Shown in pieces: positions 1-40,470 of a stretch of 40,470 nt of DNA. A program made the translations under genes and the position numbers. The stretch's first letter is position 1, and every line of letters starts with the position of its first letter. Origin of the DNA: Escherichia phage GA2A; the sequence record NC_031943.1; one strand, given 5' to 3'. Under the pieces are notes generated by a model, which ran no database searches, was not told the origin of the DNA, and worked only from the letters and a program-made list of their open reading frames with translations.

Positions 1-165
1 ATCTCACAGTTCAAGAACCTCAAGTCTCCCCATAGGCCCTCTTTCAGTCCAGACCAAAGGCCCTACCCCAGTCTATCATAAGGTTAGACCGATGGTCAAG
101 ACTTCAGGTCAACGATAGGTTGTGGCTATTGGTGGTGGTGGAGACGATAGGTTGGGACTATTGGT
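1..165. repeat. Left direct terminal repeat
   Basis: 1-165 is identical to 40274-40438 at the other end of the window; T7-like genomes carry a terminal redundancy of about this size. Confidence 0.85.
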
Positions 166-200
166 CTGCCTCTGAGTCTCTATCTGTATAACCATAGGTC

Positions 201-264
201 TAACCAACCTACAGTCTAACCAACCTACAGTCTAACCAACCTACAGTCTAACCAACCTACAGTC
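201..264. repeat. Four perfect tandem copies of the 16-bp unit TAACCAACCTACAGTC, with degenerate copies to ~306
   Basis: Read directly; related CCTACAGT motifs recur near the right end (40193-40240). Confidence 0.8.
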
Positions 265-416
265 TAACCATAAGACACCAACACCTACAGTCAGAGACCT
301 ACAGTTAATAGACACACAGCTATAGACTTAAAGTCTAAGACATGTTAGTCAAAGACTATATCCTCTTACACCATGGGGGCCGACGATAGCTTAATCAATA
401 TTATTTAAAATTACCT

Positions 417-1137: not shown

Positions 1138-1662
1138 ATGAAACTGATAGGTAAAGGCGCGTTCACTAAATGCTACCTGAAGGATTGCGGGAGGCGTGTA
1201 ATTCTGGTCTCTTCTGACCCGATAAAAGAGTGTATGGCGTGGGGATGGTTCCCTGAGTCTCCACTGTTCCCTGAAGTCAAGATGATTGAGGTTGGCACGT
1301 ATGAGATGGACTACATGCCACCAACACGGGGTCTCAAGGCGCATTTAGATGATGACCAGTGGCAGCTCTATCAGGTGCTGCGTGATTGCTTCGCATGGTC
1401 TCCGGTATTCTCTCGACCTGATGACCTGTATCACAAGTGGTACGAGATATTCCAAGCTGCACACGACAGGTCCGAGACTGAGACTGTGCGGGAAGGTCTG
1501 ATGGATGTGCTGATGGCTCTGGATGCTTGCGCTAACTTCGGGTCTGATATTCAGTTTGAGATAAGCCCGCGCAATGTACGGGCAGTGAATGGTAAGCTGA
1601 TACTAGTGGATTGCTTCTTCCTTGTGTCCAAGCTGCAAGAGGTGAGGTCATCAAGATGGTAA
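1138..1662 (+). CDS. Protein kinase-like early protein, short gp0.7-like kinase domain only
   Basis: 174-aa ORF; N-terminal GKGAFTKCY resembles the Gly-rich loop GNGHFSAAY of T7 gp0.7; C-terminal SPRNVRAVNGKLILVDCFF resembles its catalytic segment; lacks the C-terminal shut-off domain. Confidence 0.5.
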   Translation: MKLIGKGAFTKCYLKDCGRRVILVSSDPIKECMAWGWFPESPLFPEVKMIEVGTYEMDYMPPTRGLKAHLDDDQWQLYQVLRDCFAWSPVFSRPDDLYHKWYEIFQAAHDRSETETVREGLMDVLMALDACANFGSDIQFEISPRNVRAVNGKLILVDCFFLVSKLQEVRSSRW

Positions 1663-6169: not shown

Positions 6170-6189
6170 ACTATCACTATAGGATTAGA
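6167..6189 (+). promoter_or_regulatory. Phage promoter (phi1.1 position)
   Basis: TAAACTATCACTATAGGA. Confidence 0.8.
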
Positions 6190-6228
6190 CTCAAGGTCAT
6201 GACTCAAAGTCGTGGCCTTCATGATTAA
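6186..6228 (+). promoter_or_regulatory. Conserved hairpin element, probable RNase III processing site (R1.1 position)
   Basis: TAGACTCAAGGTCAT...GTGGCCTTCATGATTA; one of three copies (also 13136-13186 and 37256-37298) at positions matching T7 R1.1, R3.8 and R18.5. Confidence 0.55.
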
Positions 6229-6253
6229 CCCTAAACTCAATCAGGAGCTACAC

Positions 6254-10938: not shown

Positions 10939-11154
10939 ATGATTAAACTTATCGAATTTCTTGGTCGTCTGGTGGTGCGTGGTTATCGTCGCGCTGCTGT
11001 TATGGAACGAAAGGTAGCAGAGAAGGCTGCTGACGGTGCGGCTGATGCTGCTGCTCTGGCTGATAAGCTGACCATCGCGTCACTTGAAGCTGGCATGAAG
11101 GCACGTCAGGCTGACACCAAAGCTGACCAGTTGGCCCAGTTCTTCAAAGCCTAA
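10939..11154 (+). CDS. Hypothetical protein, 71 aa
   Basis: Internal ATG of track ORF 10849-11154 with RBS AAAGGAG; stop TAA shared with next promoter. Confidence 0.5.
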   Translation: MIKLIEFLGRLVVRGYRRAAVMERKVAEKAADGAADAAALADKLTIASLEAGMKARQADTKADQLAQFFKA

Positions 11155-11174
11155 ACTATCACCTTAGGGATGGG
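11152..11174 (+). promoter_or_regulatory. Phage promoter before primase-helicase, variant core CACCTTAGG
   Basis: TAAACTATCACCTTAGGGA, followed by inverted repeat GGGACAATTAGTCCTGTCCC. Confidence 0.6.
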
Positions 11175-11219: not shown

Positions 11220-12923
<1,704 letters not shown>

Positions 12924-12967
12924 CCTAGAGCAACGACTTGAAGAGTCACTTAAGAGGAGAGTAACTC

Positions 12968-13132
12968 ATGCTGCGAAAACTTAAAGCTCGATACCATCGG
13001 TTCATGTACAAATGGTGGAGCGATGAATCAACCTGCCTGTCGAACATTCTGGGAGACCAGCGGTTCAACTCTAAGGCATGGAAGAAAGCTAACCGGAAGT
13101 TCATGTATCACTTCTTGCGTACAGACTTCTAG
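12968..13132 (+). CDS. Hypothetical small basic protein, 54 aa
   Basis: Strong RBS AAGAGGAGAG 6 nt upstream of ATG; below track cutoff. Confidence 0.45.
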   Translation: MLRKLKARYHRFMYKWWSDESTCLSNILGDQRFNSKAWKKANRKFMYHFLRTDF

Positions 13133-13135
13133 GTC

Positions 13136-13186
13136 TAGACTCAAGGTCATTCACATCGAGTGACCTTTATGATTAGACTAAACGGA
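13136..13186 (+). promoter_or_regulatory. Conserved hairpin element, probable RNase III site (R3.8-like position)
   Basis: TAGACTCAAGGTCAT...GTGACCTTTATGATTA; second copy of the element. Confidence 0.55.
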
Positions 13187-13195
13187 GGATTAATA

Positions 13196-14068
13196 ATGAA
13201 GGTTCTAAGTCTGTTTGATGGAGTTGGTGGTGGATATCAAGCACTACGGCTTGCCGGGGTCCAAGTCTCTTCATACATCTCTTCAGAGATAGAAAAGAGC
13301 AGTATAAACATAGCAGCCCGTCATATACCTGACTACTTAAACCTAGGTGATGTTAGAGGGGTAAGAGGTGGTGACTACGACTTAATACTTGCCGGGTCTC
13401 CATGTCAAGGCTTTTCGTATGCAGGGAGGGGGCTTAACTTCAGTGATCCGCGCTCCTCACTCTTCTTCGAATTTGTCAGAATAGTCAGAGAATCATTAAT
13501 CTTTAACCCTGATGTTAAAATCTTCTTAGAGAACGTAAATATGCGTAGGGAGTGGAAGGATGTCATAACGTCAGAGCTGGGAATCAATCCAGTAGAAATA
13601 TGCGCATCCACATTATCACCTTTCCGTAGAAACCGATTATACTGGTTCAACTGGGAGTCAGCACCTGAAATAAAGACTGTCAGTTTCAAGGAGCTAACTG
13701 GTGGTTTACCATGTAGTATAGTTGGTAGACCACTTGACGAGAACCTTAAGAGGGTAGACGGAAAAGGCCTTCCGGTGGTTCAATGCATAGAGGTTACAAA
13801 TGGGGATATTGGAAGATGTGTAACTACGGTATCAAAAGACTCATGTGTATACCTAGGGGCTAATAGACCTCCGTCTAGAATACCTGATGCATATGGGGCT
13901 AATCGTAACTTATGGAGAGACCTTACTATATCCGAGCTGGAGGTGGGGCATGGGTATGACAGTGGGTTTTTTGATAATGTCAAGGAATCTACCGCCAGAA
14001 AGGCCATAGGAAACGGATGGAGCTTACAGGTTGTTTCTAGCATATTTAGAGGGCTAAACCATGTTTGA
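13196..14068 (+). CDS. DNA (cytosine-5)-methyltransferase, orphan
   Basis: Ordered C5-MTase motifs: I LFDGVGGG, IV GSPCQGFS, VI FLENV, VIII FRRNRLYWF, X IGNGWS; start at ATG 13196 with RBS GGAGG; visibly AT-richer than flanks; not present in T7. Confidence 0.85.
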   Translation: MKVLSLFDGVGGGYQALRLAGVQVSSYISSEIEKSSINIAARHIPDYLNLGDVRGVRGGDYDLILAGSPCQGFSYAGRGLNFSDPRSSLFFEFVRIVRESLIFNPDVKIFLENVNMRREWKDVITSELGINPVEICASTLSPFRRNRLYWFNWESAPEIKTVSFKELTGGLPCSIVGRPLDENLKRVDGKGLPVVQCIEVTNGDIGRCVTTVSKDSCVYLGANRPPSRIPDAYGANRNLWRDLTISELEVGHGYDSGFFDNVKESTARKAIGNGWSLQVVSSIFRGLNHV

Positions 14069-16232
14069 CCTTAAGAGTATCTGGGGTTCTGACATCGAGA
14101 CCAACGGTCTCCTTGACACCGTGTCCCAGTTCCATTGTGGGGTCCTGATTAATGCCGAGTCGAATGAGACCCTTAAGTATGGGGTAGCGCCGATGGTCGG
14201 TATCGTCGGTGGCTTCAAAGAGTATGTGCAGAAGGTGGAAGAGATTGCCGCATCGCCGGATGGTATGCTGGTATTCCACAACGGTATCAACTATGACGTC
14301 CCTGCTATTGACAAGCTGAAGCGTCTGTACTTCGGGAAACGCTTTAACTTCCCGAAACACAAGATGATTGATACCTTGGTGTTGGGCCGCTTGATGTATC
14401 CCAACATTAAGTTCTCAGACATGGGAGCGGTGAAAGCTGGTCGTCTGCCACCTAAGATGATGGGACGCCAGTCTCTTGAGGCTTGGGGCTATCGTCTAGG
14501 TGAGATGAAGGGTGAGTACAAACACGATTACGTTGCCAAGTGCAAGGCCGAAGGTATCGAATATAAGTCTGGGGACGAATGGTTGTTCCCATCTCAGGAG
14601 ATGCTGGACTATAACGTTCAGGACGTTGTGGTCACACTGGCATTGTTCAAGAAGTTCCTGACTGACAAGTATTACTTCCAGTCTGAACAGTTCGCTTTCG
14701 AACAGATTTATGCGTTGCGTCTGGAACATGATGCTGCGTGGACCTGTGCGAAGATGGAGCGTAATGGCTATCCGATGAACACCGAGATGGTCGAAGGCTT
14801 ATATCGTGAACTCACTGTCAAACGTGCGGAGTTACTTGACAAGCTGCGCTCTACTTTCGGTAGCTGGTACGCACCAAAGGGAGGCAAGGAGTTCTTCAGG
14901 CATCCACGGACAGGTAAGGACCTTCCGAAGTATCCGCGAGTCGTGTATCCTAAGGTCGGTGGAATCTTTAAGAAGCCGAAGAACAAAGCTCAACGCTTAG
15001 GTCTTGAACCTTGTGAACTCGATACGCGAGACACAATGGAAGGAGCACCATTCACGCCAATCACTTACGTTGAGTTTAATCCGGGAAGCGGAGACCACTT
15101 AGCGAAAGTCCTGATGGAGCGTGGCTGGGAGCCTGCGGACTTCACTGACACCGGTAAACCCGTAGTCGATGACGAGACGTTAGAACACGTTAAGTTACCA
15201 GACGCAGAGGCTCAGGCTTGCGTAGAGCTGGTCCGTGAGTATCTGGTGGTCCAGAAGCGCATCGGTCAGGCGGCTGAAGGTAAGAACGCATGGTTGAAAC
15301 TTGTGGGTCCAGACGGACGTATGCACGGTTCAATCAATCCATGTGGTGCAGTAACCGGACGTGCGACCCATAGTTCACCAAACATGGCTCAGGTCCCAGC
15401 TAACGGTGCTCCATATGGTGAGACTTGCCGTGGTGCTTTCGGTGCAGCGTGGAACAAGACTGACGGTAAGCCAGACCCTTGGATTCAAGTAGGTGTGGAT
15501 GCTTCAGGTCTTGAGCTTCGTTGTCTGGGGAACCGAGCGTCTCCGTTCGATGGTGGTGAATACGCGAAGACTGTAGTAGAAGGTGACATCCACTGGGCCA
15601 ATGCTGTCAACGCAGGGTTAGCTCCTAACGTCCCACGCGACAAGTCTAGCCACGACCACGATGCTTTCCGTAACAACGCCAAGACGTTCATCTATGCGTT
15701 CCTGTATGGTGCAGGGGCCGCGAAGATTGGACTGATAGTAGGAGGCGGTAAGAAGGAAGGTTCAGCTCTCATGAAGAAATTCATTGAGGGCACACCAGCT
15801 ATCAAGGACCTGCGAGAGGCTGTGCAGAACACGCTCATATCTGAGTCCAAGTGGGTAGACGGTGAGAACATCGTGAAGTGGAAACGTCGCTGGCTGAAGG
15901 GTCTGGACGGTAGACGCATTCACATCCGGTCTCCACACTCAGCACTTAACGCCTTACTTCAGGGTGACGGTGCGGTGGTATGTAAGCACTGGATGGTACT
16001 GACTGAGAAGAAACTCGAAGAGGCTGGTTACGGTAACGGATGGGACGGTGACTTTGCACTAATGGCGTGGATTCACGATGAATTACAGATAGCGTGTCGC
16101 ACTCAGGAGATAGCAGAAGATGTCGTCCGTATTGCTCAAGAGGCGATGCGTGAGGTGGGTGAGTTCTATAACTTTAAATGCGTCCTTGACACCGAAGGGA
16201 AGATAGGACCAACGTGGAAGGAGTGTCACTAG
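14061..16232 (+). CDS. 5: DNA polymerase (family A)
   Basis: 723 aa; long blocks match T7 gp5 (EAWGYRLGEMKGEYK, YNVQDVVVT, KVGGIFKKPKNKAQR, GAVTGRATH, VDASGLELRC, NAKTFIYAFLYGAG, WKRRWLKGLDGRRIHIRSPH). Confidence 0.97.
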   Translation: MFDLKSIWGSDIETNGLLDTVSQFHCGVLINAESNETLKYGVAPMVGIVGGFKEYVQKVEEIAASPDGMLVFHNGINYDVPAIDKLKRLYFGKRFNFPKHKMIDTLVLGRLMYPNIKFSDMGAVKAGRLPPKMMGRQSLEAWGYRLGEMKGEYKHDYVAKCKAEGIEYKSGDEWLFPSQEMLDYNVQDVVVTLALFKKFLTDKYYFQSEQFAFEQIYALRLEHDAAWTCAKMERNGYPMNTEMVEGLYRELTVKRAELLDKLRSTFGSWYAPKGGKEFFRHPRTGKDLPKYPRVVYPKVGGIFKKPKNKAQRLGLEPCELDTRDTMEGAPFTPITYVEFNPGSGDHLAKVLMERGWEPADFTDTGKPVVDDETLEHVKLPDAEAQACVELVREYLVVQKRIGQAAEGKNAWLKLVGPDGRMHGSINPCGAVTGRATHSSPNMAQVPANGAPYGETCRGAFGAAWNKTDGKPDPWIQVGVDASGLELRCLGNRASPFDGGEYAKTVVEGDIHWANAVNAGLAPNVPRDKSSHDHDAFRNNAKTFIYAFLYGAGAAKIGLIVGGGKKEGSALMKKFIEGTPAIKDLREAVQNTLISESKWVDGENIVKWKRRWLKGLDGRRIHIRSPHSALNALLQGDGAVVCKHWMVLTEKKLEEAGYGNGWDGDFALMAWIHDELQIACRTQEIAEDVVRIAQEAMREVGEFYNFKCVLDTEGKIGPTWKECH

Positions 16233-19098: not shown

Positions 19099-19339
19099 AT
19101 CAATCAGTAAGGCTTTCAAGAAAGTGGTGAAAAGTACGTTAGGGACCGTAGGTCTTGGCTCTGACGATGCACCTAATGTTGTTGAGGCTCAGACCCCAGC
19201 AGCACCAGTGGAAGTTCCGAACGACCAAGTTGAAGATGTGGATACTGAAACAACCGCATCTGACGAGAAGAAAGTGAAGCGGTCCGGTAAGCGTAGCCTT
19301 CAGGTCTCTCGCACCTCTGGTGGAGGCATCTCTATATGA
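19091..19339 (+). CDS. 7.3: gp7.3-like tail-associated protein
   Basis: N-terminus MGK...K..KKV and C-terminus KRSLQVSRTSGGGISI resemble T7 gp7.3 (ending SGGGINI); GTG start after AAGGAG. Confidence 0.75.
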   Translation: MGKSISKAFKKVVKSTLGTVGLGSDDAPNVVEAQTPAAPVEVPNDQVEDVDTETTASDEKKVKRSGKRSLQVSRTSGGGISI

Positions 19340-19746
19340 CAGACTGCATACTACATAAAGGCTGCGTTAATAATTCTGGGTATGGCCTGAAGTGGTATGC
19401 TGGTAAGCTGCGGGGAGCACACGTAGTGTCGTATCTCAATAACAAGGGACCTATACCAGAAGGGCTAGTTGTGATGCACTCTTGTGACAACAGATTGTGC
19501 GTAAATCCAGAACACCTTAGTATTGGGACCTACAGTGAGAACATGATAGACTGTGTTTCCAAGGGACGGAAGAACTCTCCGCATAGTGACAGCCACTACA
19601 ACTCCAAGCTGAGCGCTGAAGAAGTTAAGTCCATACGCAAGTCAGGACTAACGGCTACAGAGCTTACAGCCATGTATCCCGGAGTGTCTAGGAGAACGCT
19701 GTCTGACGTATTAACAGGTAAAACATGGAGGCACGTAGATGGCTGA
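19336..19746 (+). CDS. HNH endonuclease (homing-endonuclease-like), gene 7.7 position
   Basis: HSCDNRLCVNPEHL HNH core with upstream SGYG...GAHV; paralog of 30395-30844. Confidence 0.85.
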   Translation: MTDCILHKGCVNNSGYGLKWYAGKLRGAHVVSYLNNKGPIPEGLVVMHSCDNRLCVNPEHLSIGTYSENMIDCVSKGRKNSPHSDSHYNSKLSAEEVKSIRKSGLTATELTAMYPGVSRRTLSDVLTGKTWRHVDG

Positions 19747-30394: not shown

Positions 30395-30844
30395 ATGAAG
30401 AACGGGACAGCCAGTGAGAGACTGGCACGTCTTTCTGCTGTAGAGGAAACTGGCTGTGTCCGCTTCACCGGAGGTCTTAACAGCAGTGGGTATGGAAACT
30501 TATGGGTCGATGGAAAGACAGTAGGAGCGCACCGTGTTGCCTATGAGTTAGCGAATGGTCCGATACCTAAGGGTAGCGTACTGCGACACACTTGCGACAA
30601 CAGGTATTGCGTGAACCCTGAACACTTAGTCTTAGGGACGCATCGTGAAAACATGGAGGATATGACTAAACGTGGTCGTCAGGCAAGAGGCTCACAGATA
30701 AGCACTTGCGTACTGACTGAAGAAGACGTCAGGTTTATCCGCTCAAGTGATAAAAGCGGTGTGGAACTGGCACAGATTTTAGGAATCTCACCAGTAACTA
30801 TCAGTCGAATCAAGAGGAGATTAACATGGCAACACGTGGTATAA
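30395..30844 (+). CDS. HNH endonuclease, second copy, inserted between genes 15 and 16
   Basis: HTCDNRYCVNPEHL core with SGYG...GAHRVAY; paralogous to 19336-19746; 3' end overlaps the start of gene 16 by 19 nt. Confidence 0.85.
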   Translation: MKNGTASERLARLSAVEETGCVRFTGGLNSSGYGNLWVDGKTVGAHRVAYELANGPIPKGSVLRHTCDNRYCVNPEHLVLGTHRENMEDMTKRGRQARGSQISTCVLTEEDVRFIRSSDKSGVELAQILGISPVTISRIKRRLTWQHVV

Positions 30845-36991: not shown

Positions 36992-37251
36992 CGCAGATGG
37001 ACTTAGAGAAGTTCCTGCTTATGCTGGACACTGAGCGTGCTCGCCTGATGTTGCAGGACTTGCGAGATGACTCCAAGCGTAACCCGCAGCTCTATAACTC
37101 CATTGAGAAACTTCTGGCTCGCCACAACTTTGTGTTAAGCAAGGTGTCTGTGGACGAGAAGACACTGGCTGACATGGAGGCACTGAACAAGGAGTACGAG
37201 AAGACCCTAAGTGAGTCCGAGGACAACGACACCGGGTATGGTGTTCAGTAA
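36988..37251 (+). CDS. 18: Terminase small subunit
   Basis: 87 aa versus 89; FLLMLDTERARLMLQDL...NPQLYNSIEKLLARH resembles T7 gp18. Confidence 0.9.
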   Translation: MTQMDLEKFLLMLDTERARLMLQDLRDDSKRNPQLYNSIEKLLARHNFVLSKVSVDEKTLADMEALNKEYEKTLSESEDNDTGYGVQ

Positions 37252-37255
37252 GTGT

Positions 37256-37298
37256 TAGACTCAAGGTCATTACTAATATGTAGTGGCCTTTATGATTA
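37256..37298 (+). promoter_or_regulatory. Conserved hairpin element, probable RNase III site (R18.5 position)
   Basis: TAGACTCAAGGTCAT...GTGGCCTTTATGATTA; third copy of the element. Confidence 0.55.
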
Positions 37299-37351
37299 AC
37301 ACACTACGAGAGGCGACTCTACGTGGATTCTTTAAAACGAGGAGGGCAACT

Positions 37352-40273: not shown

Positions 40274-40470
40274 ATCTCACAGTTCAAGAACCTCAAGTCT
40301 CCCCATAGGCCCTCTTTCAGTCCAGACCAAAGGCCCTACCCCAGTCTATCATAAGGTTAGACCGATGGTCAAGACTTCAGGTCAACGATAGGTTGTGGCT
40401 ATTGGTGGTGGTGGAGACGATAGGTTGGGACTATTGGTGGTGGTGGAGACGATAGGTTGGGACTATTGGT
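40274..40470. repeat. Right direct terminal repeat plus one extra partial tandem unit
   Basis: 40274-40438 identical to 1-165; 40439-40470 repeats the preceding unit GGTGGTGGAGACGATAGGTTGGGACTATTGGT. Confidence 0.85.

What the first reader, a model, noticed from the sequence alone, without database searches (positions are those of the whole stretch)
13133..14068. Orphan C5-cytosine DNA methyltransferase inside the T7-like replication module
The ORF at 13196-14068 carries the ordered motif set of a C5-cytosine methyltransferase (FDGVGGG, GSPCQGFS, ENV, FRRNRLYWF, IGNGWS) with only a short target-recognition region. It sits between the primase-helicase and DNA polymerase genes, where T7 has small genes of unknown function. 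It reads as AT-richer than its flanks and is preceded by one of the conserved RNase III-like hairpins. No restriction endonuclease partner is present. The most likely role is self-methylation of the phage genome to evade host restriction, but a short-TRD enzyme could have an unusual specificity.
Basis: partly seen in the sequence, partly recalled or inferred. Interest (0 to 1): 0.75.

Follow-up and report, generated by a model that had tools for sequence, protein, structure and literature searches.

The report
Orphan cytosine methyltransferase in T7-like phage
A T7-like (Kayfunavirus) phage carries a foreign gene for an intact DNA cytosine-C5 methyltransferase, inserted exactly between the ribosome-binding site and start codon of its DNA polymerase gene; it is a known kind of phage gene, probably used to hide progeny DNA from host restriction enzymes, and is already annotated in one sister phage.

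Summary
ORF 13196-14068 (+) encodes a 290-aa protein with all C5-cytosine methyltransferase motifs in canonical order, including the catalytic Cys70. It passes the Pfam PF00145 cut-off and gives a confident model (pLDDT 93).

It is foreign DNA. It is the lowest-GC stretch of the genome (0.44 against 0.51; GC3 0.39 against 0.56-0.68). It is absent from all but one of 175 related phage records. The insert is about 865 bp and holds only the ORF. It uses the ancestral gene-5 Shine-Dalgarno sequence, and its stop codon overlaps the polymerase start (ATGTTTGA).

Salmonella phage vB Seyj3-1 has the same insert (98.7% nt identity) on a backbone only 87-91% identical, annotated as a C5 methyltransferase.

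No restriction enzyme partner is present. The two HNH genes elsewhere in the genome are unlinked homing endonucleases.

The nearest relatives (59-65% identity) are orphan genes in unrelated enterobacterial phages. Every context sampled for the wider family was phage-like. The closest solved structures are the eukaryotic DNMT3A/B catalytic domains.

The "short TRD" claim does not hold: about 89 aa, like M.HhaI. The upstream hairpin is the ancestral gene-5 leader, not part of the insert.

Sequence specificity and the anti-restriction role remain untested. This is an ordinary kind of gene in an unusual lineage.

The parts
11146..11170 (+). Nearest upstream phage-RNAP promoter (CTAAACTATCACCTTAGGGA). 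It would drive the gene 4, 4.3, methyltransferase and gene 5 transcript.
   Evidence: Member of the promoter repeat family D2/D3. No other copy lies between 11170 and 18090. The equivalent site is annotated as a promoter in EcoDS1.
11223..12923 (+). Gene 4 primase-helicase (left flank)
   Evidence: ORF list; annotated as primase/helicase in relatives.
12968..13132 (+). gp4.3 homologue, 54 aa, the ancestral small gene before gene 5
   Evidence: phrog_13039 E 4.6e-39; EcoDS1 gene 4.3 occupies the same place.
13126..13188 (+). Bipartite RNase III-like hairpin (lower stem, internal loop, upper stem). It is the ancestral gene-5 leader, not part of the insert.
   Evidence: -22.6 kcal/mol, z -3.4. 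The same fold occurs in EcoDS1, which lacks the methyltransferase. Two paralogous hairpins at about 6180 and 37250 have compensatory upper-stem changes.
13184..13189 (+). Shine-Dalgarno GGAGGA. Ancestrally it served gene 5; it now serves the methyltransferase.
   Evidence: Identical in EcoDS1 and 101118UKE1, where it precedes gene 5 or an HNH gene.
13194..14058 (+). Foreign insert of about 865 bp; junctions are ambiguous by 3-4 nt because TAA occurs at both ends
   Evidence: Alignments with Kayfunaviruses that lack it. Lowest-GC stretch of the genome. 98.7% identical to Seyj3-1 while the flanks are 87-91% identical.
13196..14068 (+). C5-cytosine DNA methyltransferase CDS (290 aa)
13394..13417 (+). 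Motif IV GSPCQGFS; catalytic Cys70 codon at 13403-13405
   Evidence: Read from the sequence; C70 is invariant in 63 homologues.
13529..13537 (+). Motif VI ENV (residues 112-114)
   Evidence: Read from the sequence; invariant in the family.
13652..13915 (+). Target-recognition region (residues about 153-240), including the family-conserved CVTTVSKD loop (residues 208-215)
   Evidence: Conserved columns G177, R178, D188, Q196, C208, T210, T211, V212, K214, D215. The loop aligns with the DNMT3A TRD loop TTRSNS.
14049..14053 (+). SD-like GAGGG inside the methyltransferase 3' end, 7 nt before the gene 5 ATG
   Evidence: Read from the sequence. That it functions as the new gene-5 ribosome-binding site is inference.
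14061..16232 (+). Gene 5 DNA polymerase. Its start overlaps the methyltransferase stop (ATGTTTGA, 14061-14068).
   Evidence: ORF list; annotated as DNA polymerase in relatives.

Best explanation
The ORF encodes a catalytically competent, stand-alone (orphan) SAM-dependent DNA cytosine-C5 methyltransferase that a Kayfunavirus acquired horizontally as a bare ORF.

Shown:
- The insert went in between the Shine-Dalgarno sequence and the start codon of gene 5.
- It has no promoter or terminator of its own.
- The nearest phage promoter upstream is at 11146.

Inferred:
- It is transcribed with the DNA-replication (class II) genes and translated from the old gene-5 ribosome-binding site.
- It is translationally linked to the DNA polymerase gene, which now starts 8 nt before the methyltransferase stop, behind an SD-like GAGGG inside the methyltransferase coding sequence.
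- Being made while phage DNA replicates, it methylates a still-unknown short motif on progeny genomes before packaging.
- Those genomes then resist type II (and possibly other) restriction systems sensitive to 5mC at that motif in the next host. This adds to the strong restriction-site avoidance of the backbone.
- The price is exposure to methyl-dependent (type IV) restriction. That cost may be why the gene is rare in this genus.
For: Identity and integrity:
- PF00145 above its cut-off; full-length phrog_116 match.
- All motifs are present, and the family-invariant residues are C70, E112-N113-V114, R145, R147, W150, G272 and W275.
- Purifying selection since the split from Seyj3-1: 8 synonymous and 3 non-synonymous changes, pN/pS 0.11.

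Foreign origin and insertion anatomy:
- Composition.
- Only 1 of 175 flank-matching phage records has the gene.
- Junction alignments.
- The insert is 98.7% identical to Seyj3-1; gene 4 is 91% and gene 5 is 86.7%.

Orphan status:
- The flanks are gp4.3 and the DNA polymerase.
- No sigma-70 promoter signal above the shuffle expectation, and no terminator, in 12800-14300.
- The HNH genes at 19336 and 30395 occur in phages without the methyltransferase and are absent from Seyj3-1.
- All seven homologue contexts examined are phage-like, with no endonuclease domain next door.

Rationale for a benefit:
- The backbone avoids CCWGG (4 against about 84 expected), GATC (7 against about 157) and most 6-bp palindromes (0).
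- It still carries 66-242 copies of GGCC, GCGC, CCGG, AGCT, GCNGC and CCSGG.
- No Ocr or SAM hydrolase homologue was detected among the early ORFs scanned.
Against: - No activity, methylation motif or 5mC content was measured.
- Specificity cannot be read from the sequence, and no characterised close relative was found.
- The gene is in only 2 of about 175 related phages, so it is clearly dispensable and may be nearly neutral or costly.
- T7-like infection is fast, so methylation of progeny DNA could be incomplete.
- TIGR00675 (dcm) matched only the N-terminal half, below its cut-off: 83.6 against 100.65 bits.
- The pN/pS estimate rests on 11 substitutions.
Confidence: 0.68

Rival explanations
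1. Selfish or near-neutral passenger. The ORF is a mobile gene that lands in intergenic gaps of phage replication and nucleotide-metabolism modules and spreads by recombination between co-infecting phages. It is active or not, but gives this phage no meaningful benefit.
For: - Rare in the genus.
- The same slot holds an HNH_3 homing endonuclease in phage 101118UKE1.
- The closest homologues sit between nrdA and nrdB in large myoviruses, with an HNH gene splitting nrdB in one of them (one search shows reference relatives matching the flanks but not the methyltransferase).
- The insert is much more similar between two diverged backbones than their flanks are.
Against: - All catalytic motifs are intact and pN/pS is 0.11.
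- The family is kept across very diverse phages.
- A methyltransferase has no known way to promote its own transfer.
Confidence: 0.15
2. Methylation serves something other than escape from classical restriction. Candidates are marking phage DNA as self against another nuclease or defence system, altering host or phage gene expression, or tuning polymerase expression through the translational coupling created by the insertion.
For: - Expressed with the replication genes and overlapping the polymerase start.
- BASEL authors found no simple link between phage methyltransferase genes and restriction resistance (PMC8594841).
- Phage C5-methyltransferases can interact with non-R-M defences such as retron Ec86 (bioRxiv 10.1101/2023.08.16.553469).
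Against: - No partner genes in the window suggest such a system.
- Most Kayfunaviruses do without the gene.
- The retron-triggering Drexlerviridae Dcm is not the same family: BLASTP finds nothing and hhalign gives probability 75%.
Confidence: 0.1
3. First step of a hypermodification pathway (5mC to 5hmC to a glycosylated base), or transfer of a group other than methyl.
For: - Phage C5-methyltransferases coupled to TET-like dioxygenases exist (PMC8256090).
Against: - No TET/5mYOX, glycosyltransferase or other tailoring gene sits next to the ORF. The ORFs of at least 90 aa lie in the order seen in annotated Kayfunaviruses, and the 26 smaller ORFs scanned gave only known T7-like families or no match.
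- None sits next to the close homologues either.
Confidence: 0.03
4. Inactive relic: the fold is kept but the enzyme no longer methylates DNA.
For: - The C-terminal three codons and the stop come from recipient sequence.
- The Q of motif VIII (QxRxR) is F in this subclade.
Against: - The length matches relatives (290 against 291-295 aa), and P0002 ends at the homologous residue.
- DNMT3A also lacks that Q.
- All invariant residues are kept, and pN/pS is 0.11.
Confidence: 0.04

Closest known systems
DNA (cytosine-5-)-methyltransferase QQV89122.1 of Salmonella phage vB Seyj3-1 (MW416012.1)
   Same: 99% aa and 98.7% nt identity. Same insertion junctions, and the same position between gp4.3 and the DNA polymerase, in a Kayfunavirus.
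   Different: The backbone differs (flanking genes 87-91% identical). The Seyj3-1 record is only annotated, and I found no functional study.
Phage orphan C5-methyltransferases of PHROG 116, e.g. Phi92_gp043 / Justusliebigvirus 'cytosine methyltransferase'
   Same: Full-length homology at 39% identity. Stand-alone genes in virulent enterobacterial phages with no endonuclease partner.
   Different: They sit in 145-150 kb myoviruses, in other genomic contexts. Specificity is unknown for both.
Eukaryotic DNMT3A/DNMT3B/DNMT3C catalytic domains
   Same: - Shared signatures: RxR followed by an aromatic-Trp pair after motif VIII, G-x-x-W-S/T in motif X, and an alignable TRD loop (TTVSKD against TTRSNS).
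- Similar size (290 against about 285 aa).
   Different: - No PWWP or ADD domains.
- PCQ rather than PCN in motif IV.
- About 30-35 extra residues in the TRD.
- The residues at the positions of DNMT3A R836 and N838, which I recall from the DNMT3A-DNA complex papers as the CpG-contacting residues, are V212 and K214.
- A phage gene. No evidence for DNMT3L-type partners or CpG specificity. No phylogeny was made here.
Classical bacterial type II C5-methyltransferases M.HhaI and M.HaeIII
   Same: Same ten-motif order, fold and catalytic residues. The profile aligns end to end.
   Different: Those are partnered with restriction enzymes. Sequence and fold scores are lower than for DNMT3, and the TRD is unrelated in sequence.
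Drexlerviridae 'Dcm-like' methyltransferase (KarlJaspers bas06_0055), the CCWGG enzyme that triggers retron Ec86
   Same: Small orphan phage C5-methyltransferase, modelled on DNMT3A by its authors.
   Different: Not the same family: no BLASTP similarity, hhalign probability 75% over the N-terminal half only. Its CCWGG specificity cannot be transferred to this enzyme.

Membership tests
C5-cytosine DNA methyltransferase (Pfam PF00145) | Profile score above the curated gathering threshold | tested here: met
   85.4 bits against a cut-off of 22, E 6.5e-24. The match covers residues 1-116 only.
C5-cytosine DNA methyltransferase (Pfam PF00145) | Motif I FxGxG (SAM binding) | tested here: met
   F7-D-G-V-G-G-G13; F7 and G9 are nearly invariant in the family.
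C5-cytosine DNA methyltransferase (Pfam PF00145) | Motif IV Pro-Cys with the catalytic cysteine | tested here: met
   P69-C70-Q71; the Cys codon is at 13403-13405; invariant in 63 homologues.
C5-cytosine DNA methyltransferase (Pfam PF00145) | Motif VI ENV and motif VIII RxR | tested here: met
   E112-N113-V114 and R145/R147, all invariant.
C5-cytosine DNA methyltransferase (Pfam PF00145) | Motifs IX and X after a variable TRD, in non-permuted order | tested here: met
   R241..T244..E247, then G272-N-G-W275. The profile aligns end to end with HaeIII and HhaI.
C5-cytosine DNA methyltransferase (Pfam PF00145) | Two-domain C5-methyltransferase fold | tested here: met
   [not shown]
C5-cytosine DNA methyltransferase (Pfam PF00145) | Transfers methyl to C5 of cytosine in DNA | not testable with these tools
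   Needs methylome sequencing or LC-MS.
NCBIfam TIGR00675 (dcm superfamily model) | Score above the curated cut-off | tested here: not met
   83.6 bits against a cut-off of 100.65; only residues 3-115 match. The C-terminal half is too divergent from that model.
Orphan (solitary) phage methyltransferase | No cognate restriction endonuclease encoded nearby or elsewhere in the genome | tested here: met
   Neighbours are gp4.3 and the DNA polymerase. The other nucleases are gp3 endonuclease I, gp6 exonuclease and two HNH homing endonucleases that do not co-occur with the methyltransferase in other phages. Not every small ORF was scanned.
Phage 'moron' (autonomous inserted transcription unit) | Own promoter and terminator flanking the inserted gene | tested here: not met
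   No phage promoter copy between 11170 and 18090. No terminator, and sigma-70-like hits at chance level, in 12800-14300. The insert is a bare ORF that uses gene 5's Shine-Dalgarno sequence.
Eukaryotic DNMT3 family | Catalytic domain closest to DNMT3 among characterised methyltransferases | tested here: met
   Top by sequence and fold among solved structures. The comparison covers PDB entries only.
Eukaryotic DNMT3 family | N-terminal chromatin-reading domains (PWWP/ADD); PCN motif IV; eukaryotic gene | tested here: not met
   The 290-aa protein is catalytic domain only, with PCQ, and is encoded by a phage. It resembles DNMT3 but is not a member.
Eukaryotic DNMT3 family | Monophyly with DNMT3 in a phylogeny that includes bacterial methyltransferases | not tested
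   No tree was built. Published trees leave the prokaryotic donor of DNMT3 unresolved (PMC3227630, PMC12344493).
T7-type RNase III processing site (the upstream hairpin) | Bipartite stem with internal loop, conserved position and sequence in relatives | tested here: met
   Present in EcoDS1 and 101118UKE1.
T7-type RNase III processing site (the upstream hairpin) | Cleavage by host RNase III | not testable with these tools
   Needs RNA end mapping.

The most novel reading that the evidence does not exclude
The enzyme belongs to a compact C5-methyltransferase clade that was phage-borne in every context sampled here. Its catalytic core and TRD loop are closer to eukaryotic DNMT3 than to any solved bacterial enzyme. 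If a proper phylogeny placed this clade as sister to DNMT3, it would point to a phage-type orphan methyltransferase as the source of the eukaryotic de novo methyltransferases. Separately, its conserved TRD might specify a very short or previously unseen motif that gives broad protection.
Probability: 0.12. Interest if true: 0.65.

Novelty: new member of a known kind. Interest (0 to 1): 0.3.

Why it matters
Mostly local. It shows a T7-like coliphage/Salmonella phage lineage, which normally relies on restriction-site avoidance, picking up an epigenetic counter-defence gene. It also shows how: a promoter-less ORF placed between the ribosome-binding site and start codon of the DNA polymerase gene, then passed between diverged phages by recombination.

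For phage therapy candidates of this genus, it predicts different host ranges on strains with 5mC-sensitive restriction systems and on strains with methyl-dependent ones.

The DNMT3 resemblance of this phage-borne family is a lead for work on the origin of eukaryotic de novo methyltransferases. Annotation pipelines already hint at it: JGI names some homologues 'DNMT3A'.

Tried and rejected
1. Transferring CCWGG specificity from the experimentally studied Drexlerviridae Dcm (the retron Ec86 trigger). Rejected: the two proteins are not detectably the same family, and the genome has only 4 CCWGG sites.

2. Inferring specificity from restriction-enzyme neighbours of chromosomal homologues. The three homologues on large contigs (74-629 kb) are also in phage-like contexts with no endonuclease domain.

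3. Linking the family to the GpC-specific, TET-coupled phage methyltransferases of Burke et al. No sequences were available (0 supplements held), and no TET-like gene lies in the window or near close homologues.

4. The HNH genes at 19336 and 30395 as hidden partners. Rejected by their distribution.

5. Literature on Seyj3-1 or phi92 methyltransferases. Nothing functional was found.

6. A SAM hydrolase or Ocr that would conflict with or replace the methyltransferase. None was detected among the early ORFs scanned.

7. The afdb50 fold library was unavailable.

8. Site-count statistics show which motifs remain frequent, but they cannot identify the target.

Full report
**What is there.** The window is a complete T7-like genome of the genus Kayfunavirus. 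Its best overall matches are about 90% identical over 84% of the first 25 kb. It has terminal repeats and a family of phage promoters.

ORF 13196-14068 on the + strand starts at an ATG six bases after a GGAGGA Shine-Dalgarno sequence and encodes 290 aa.
- FDGVGGG, residues 7-13
- GSPCQGFS, residues 67-74, with the Cys70 codon at 13403-13405
- ENV, residues 112-114
- FRRNRLYWF, residues 143-151
- IGNGWS, residues 271-276

The protein passes the Pfam C5-methylase threshold (PF00145, 85.4 bits against 22, E 6.5e-24), although only residues 1-116 match. It matches PHROG 116 'DNA methyltransferase' over its whole length (E 1.7e-44). It falls below the NCBIfam dcm cut-off, because the C-terminal half is divergent.

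In an alignment of 63 homologues the catalytic residues are invariant: C70, E112-N113-V114, R145, R147, W150, G272 and W275. An AlphaFold model built on that alignment is confident (pLDDT 93.3, pTM 0.89). Its best matches among solved structures are DNA C5-methyltransferases.

**It is foreign DNA, inserted with single-gene precision.** GC is 0.44 against a genome mean of 0.51. No other non-overlapping 873-nt stretch of the genome is as low. GC3 is 0.39 against 0.56-0.68 in neighbouring genes. The insert carries one of the genome's seven GATC sites and four of its 41 CTAG sites.

Of 175 phage records that match the flanks, only Salmonella phage vB Seyj3-1 has the gene. In EcoDS1 and most relatives, gp4.3 is followed by a hairpin, the sequence GGAGGATTAACCATG, and gene 5.

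In the window the shared sequence runs up to GGAGGATTAA (13193) and resumes at (A)ACCATGTTTGACC (about 14057). This brackets an insert of about 865 bp with a TAA at both junctions. Three things follow:
- The methyltransferase uses the Shine-Dalgarno sequence that ancestrally served the polymerase.
- Its last three codons and its stop (AAC CAT GTT TGA) are recipient sequence, so it overlaps the polymerase start (ATGTTTGA).
- An SD-like GAGGG inside its 3' end lies 7 nt before the polymerase ATG.

The closest metagenomic homologue ends ...AAAAATGTTTGAC. A 9-nt patch identical to the gene-5 start may therefore have guided the right-hand crossover, and the ORF ends at the homologous residue.

There is no phage promoter between 11170 and 18090. 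The region 12800-14300 has no terminator and no sigma-70 signal above chance. The gene should therefore be read from the class II transcript that starts at the promoter at 11146.

**One event, then lateral spread.** Seyj3-1 has identical junctions. Across the insert the two phages are 98.7% identical (850/861). The gene 4 part is 91% identical and gene 5 is 86.7%. The 11 differences in the coding sequence are 8 synonymous and 3 non-synonymous (pN/pS 0.11). This fits purifying selection, but the counts are small.

The slot is a recurrent landing site:
- Phage 101118UKE1 has an HNH_3 homing endonuclease there.
- A distant T7-like metagenomic contig (L021) has a family member (35% identity, with a different TRD) between its gp4-like and gp5-like genes.

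**Relatives and orphan status.** The nearest proteins (59-65% identity) are in unrelated enterobacterial phages. Some lie between the two ribonucleotide reductase subunit genes of large myoviruses related to Pectobacterium CB7 and Klebsiella KaOmega. One lies in a K1H-like siphovirus. At 39% identity come the phi92/Justusliebigvirus methyltransferases.

Three more homologues on 74-629 kb contigs are also in phage-like neighbourhoods. No endonuclease domain was found next to any of the seven homologues whose neighbourhoods were examined.

In the window, the only other nucleases are the standard gp3 and gp6 and two free-standing HNH genes (19336-19746 and 30395-30844). Those HNH genes occur in phages that lack the methyltransferase and are missing from Seyj3-1. 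The enzyme is an orphan.

The target-recognition region is not short. About 89 residues separate motif VIII from motif IX, and they are predicted as a folded beta-rich subdomain. The family profile aligns end to end with M.HaeIII and M.HhaI, which are only 15-30 residues longer overall. Relative to DNMT3A the region is 30-35 residues longer.

The hairpin at 13126-13188 is real (-22.6 kcal/mol, z -3.4). It has the bipartite shape of T7 RNase III sites, and two paralogues in the genome show compensatory changes in the upper stem. But it is the ancestral leader of gene 5, present in phages without the insert.

**Likely function.**

Shown:
- An intact C5-methyltransferase gene placed in the replication operon.
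- No partner nuclease.

Inferred:
- The enzyme is made during DNA replication and methylates progeny genomes.
- Those genomes then resist restriction enzymes sensitive to 5mC at its motif in the next host.

The backbone already avoids CCWGG (4 sites against about 84 expected), GATC (7 against about 157) and most 6-bp palindromes (0). It keeps 66-242 copies of GGCC, GCGC, CCGG, AGCT, GCNGC and CCSGG. A methyltransferase for a 4-5 bp motif would therefore add protection that site avoidance does not give.

No Ocr or SAM hydrolase homologue was detected among the early ORFs scanned.

The likely cost is sensitivity to methyl-dependent restriction. A published example shows that a phage C5-methyltransferase can also trigger a defence system, retron Ec86. 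That enzyme is not of this family, however. Cost and benefit together may explain why only two of about 175 related phages carry the gene.

I could not determine the specificity.

**The DNMT3 resemblance.** Among all solved structures the best matches are the catalytic domains of eukaryotic DNMT3A/B/C:
- Single sequence: E 2e-17, against 1.7e-10 for HhaI.
- Family profile: E 1.4e-44, against 7.6e-34 for HaeIII.
- Foldseek: the top 50 hits are all DNMT3.

Shared signatures are RxR followed by an aromatic-Trp pair, G-x-x-W-S/T in motif X, and an alignable TRD loop (TTVSKD against TTRSNS).

The protein is not a DNMT3. It has no PWWP or ADD domain, it has PCQ rather than PCN, and its TRD is longer. 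The comparison is limited to PDB entries, and no phylogeny was made. Published trees leave the prokaryotic source of DNMT3 unresolved. JGI's pipeline already labels some homologues 'DNMT3A'.

**Verdict.** The thing itself is a known kind: a phage orphan C5-methyltransferase, already annotated at 99% identity in a public phage record. What is new here:
- the exact anatomy of the insertion and the translational coupling to the polymerase it implies;
- the evidence for recent lateral spread;
- the phage-borne, DNMT3-like nature of the family.

Interest is modest (0.3).

Noticed in passing
window 1-165 and 40274-40438; 40417-40470: Exact 165-nt direct terminal repeat, so the window is a whole linear genome. 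The right end carries one extra copy of a 32-nt unit (ACGATAGGTTG..GGTGGTGGAG) that is also repeated inside the terminal repeat.
   Followed up: no
window 182-280: Tandem array of five to six copies of a 16-nt unit (GTCTAACCAACCTACA) just inside the left terminal repeat. Its function was not examined.
   Followed up: no
window 2631, 6166, 8060, 9042, 11151, 18095, 21304, 22310, 27003, 34710, 39641 (approximate starts): Family of phage-RNAP promoter-like sequences, C/TTAAACTATCAC(T/C)(A/T)TAGG(G/A)A. None lies between gene 4 and gene 6.5, so genes 4 to 6 form one transcription unit.
   Followed up: partly
window 6180-6235, 13126-13188, 37250-37305: Three paralogous bipartite hairpins share TTAGACTCAAGGTCAT..CCTT(T/C)ATGATTA. 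Their upper stems differ by compensatory changes, the expected look of T7-type RNase III sites.
   Followed up: partly
window 19336-19746 and 30395-30844: Two free-standing HNH homing-endonuclease genes, one before the portal gene and one between the internal virion protein genes. They are present in only 6 and 4 phage records at full length. They are absent from Seyj3-1 and so unlinked to the methyltransferase.
   Followed up: yes
L003 3297-3698 (Escherichia phage vB_EcoP-101118UKE1): The same SD-to-gene-5 slot holds a 133-aa HNH_3 homing endonuclease in this relative (Pfam E 1.8e-17). The site is therefore a hotspot for gene insertion.
   Followed up: yes
L021 321-4996 (IMGVR_UViG_3300025751_002148): A distant T7-like contig (gp4 39% and gp5 34% identical) has a 317-aa member of the same methyltransferase family between its primase-helicase and DNA polymerase genes. 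Its TRD differs from the window's.
   Followed up: partly
L026 4001-5020 and 7252-8613: Another metagenomic phage contig has a family member about 2 kb upstream of a T7-like RNA polymerase gene, which would be in the early region.
   Followed up: no
L001 (MW416012.1, Seyj3-1) locus 2788-2896: In the public Seyj3-1 record the terminase gene and genome end run, within a few bases, into the middle of gene 4 (equivalent to window 1-102 and then 11837). Only 25 features are annotated. The record looks permuted or misassembled.
   Followed up: no
L005 6934-9001: In one of the myovirus-like contigs carrying the closest homologue, the nrdB gene just downstream of the methyltransferase is split by an HNH_3/HTH gene.
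   Followed up: no
window 12900-13000: A 33-nt indel and low identity (54% in this 100-nt bin) between the window and Seyj3-1, just after the end of gene 4 and over the start of gene 4.3.
   Followed up: no
window 1138-1662: The largest early ORF (174 aa) belongs to phrog_11084, of unknown function, with no Pfam hit. No Ocr or SAM hydrolase homologue was found among the early ORFs scanned.
   Followed up: partly
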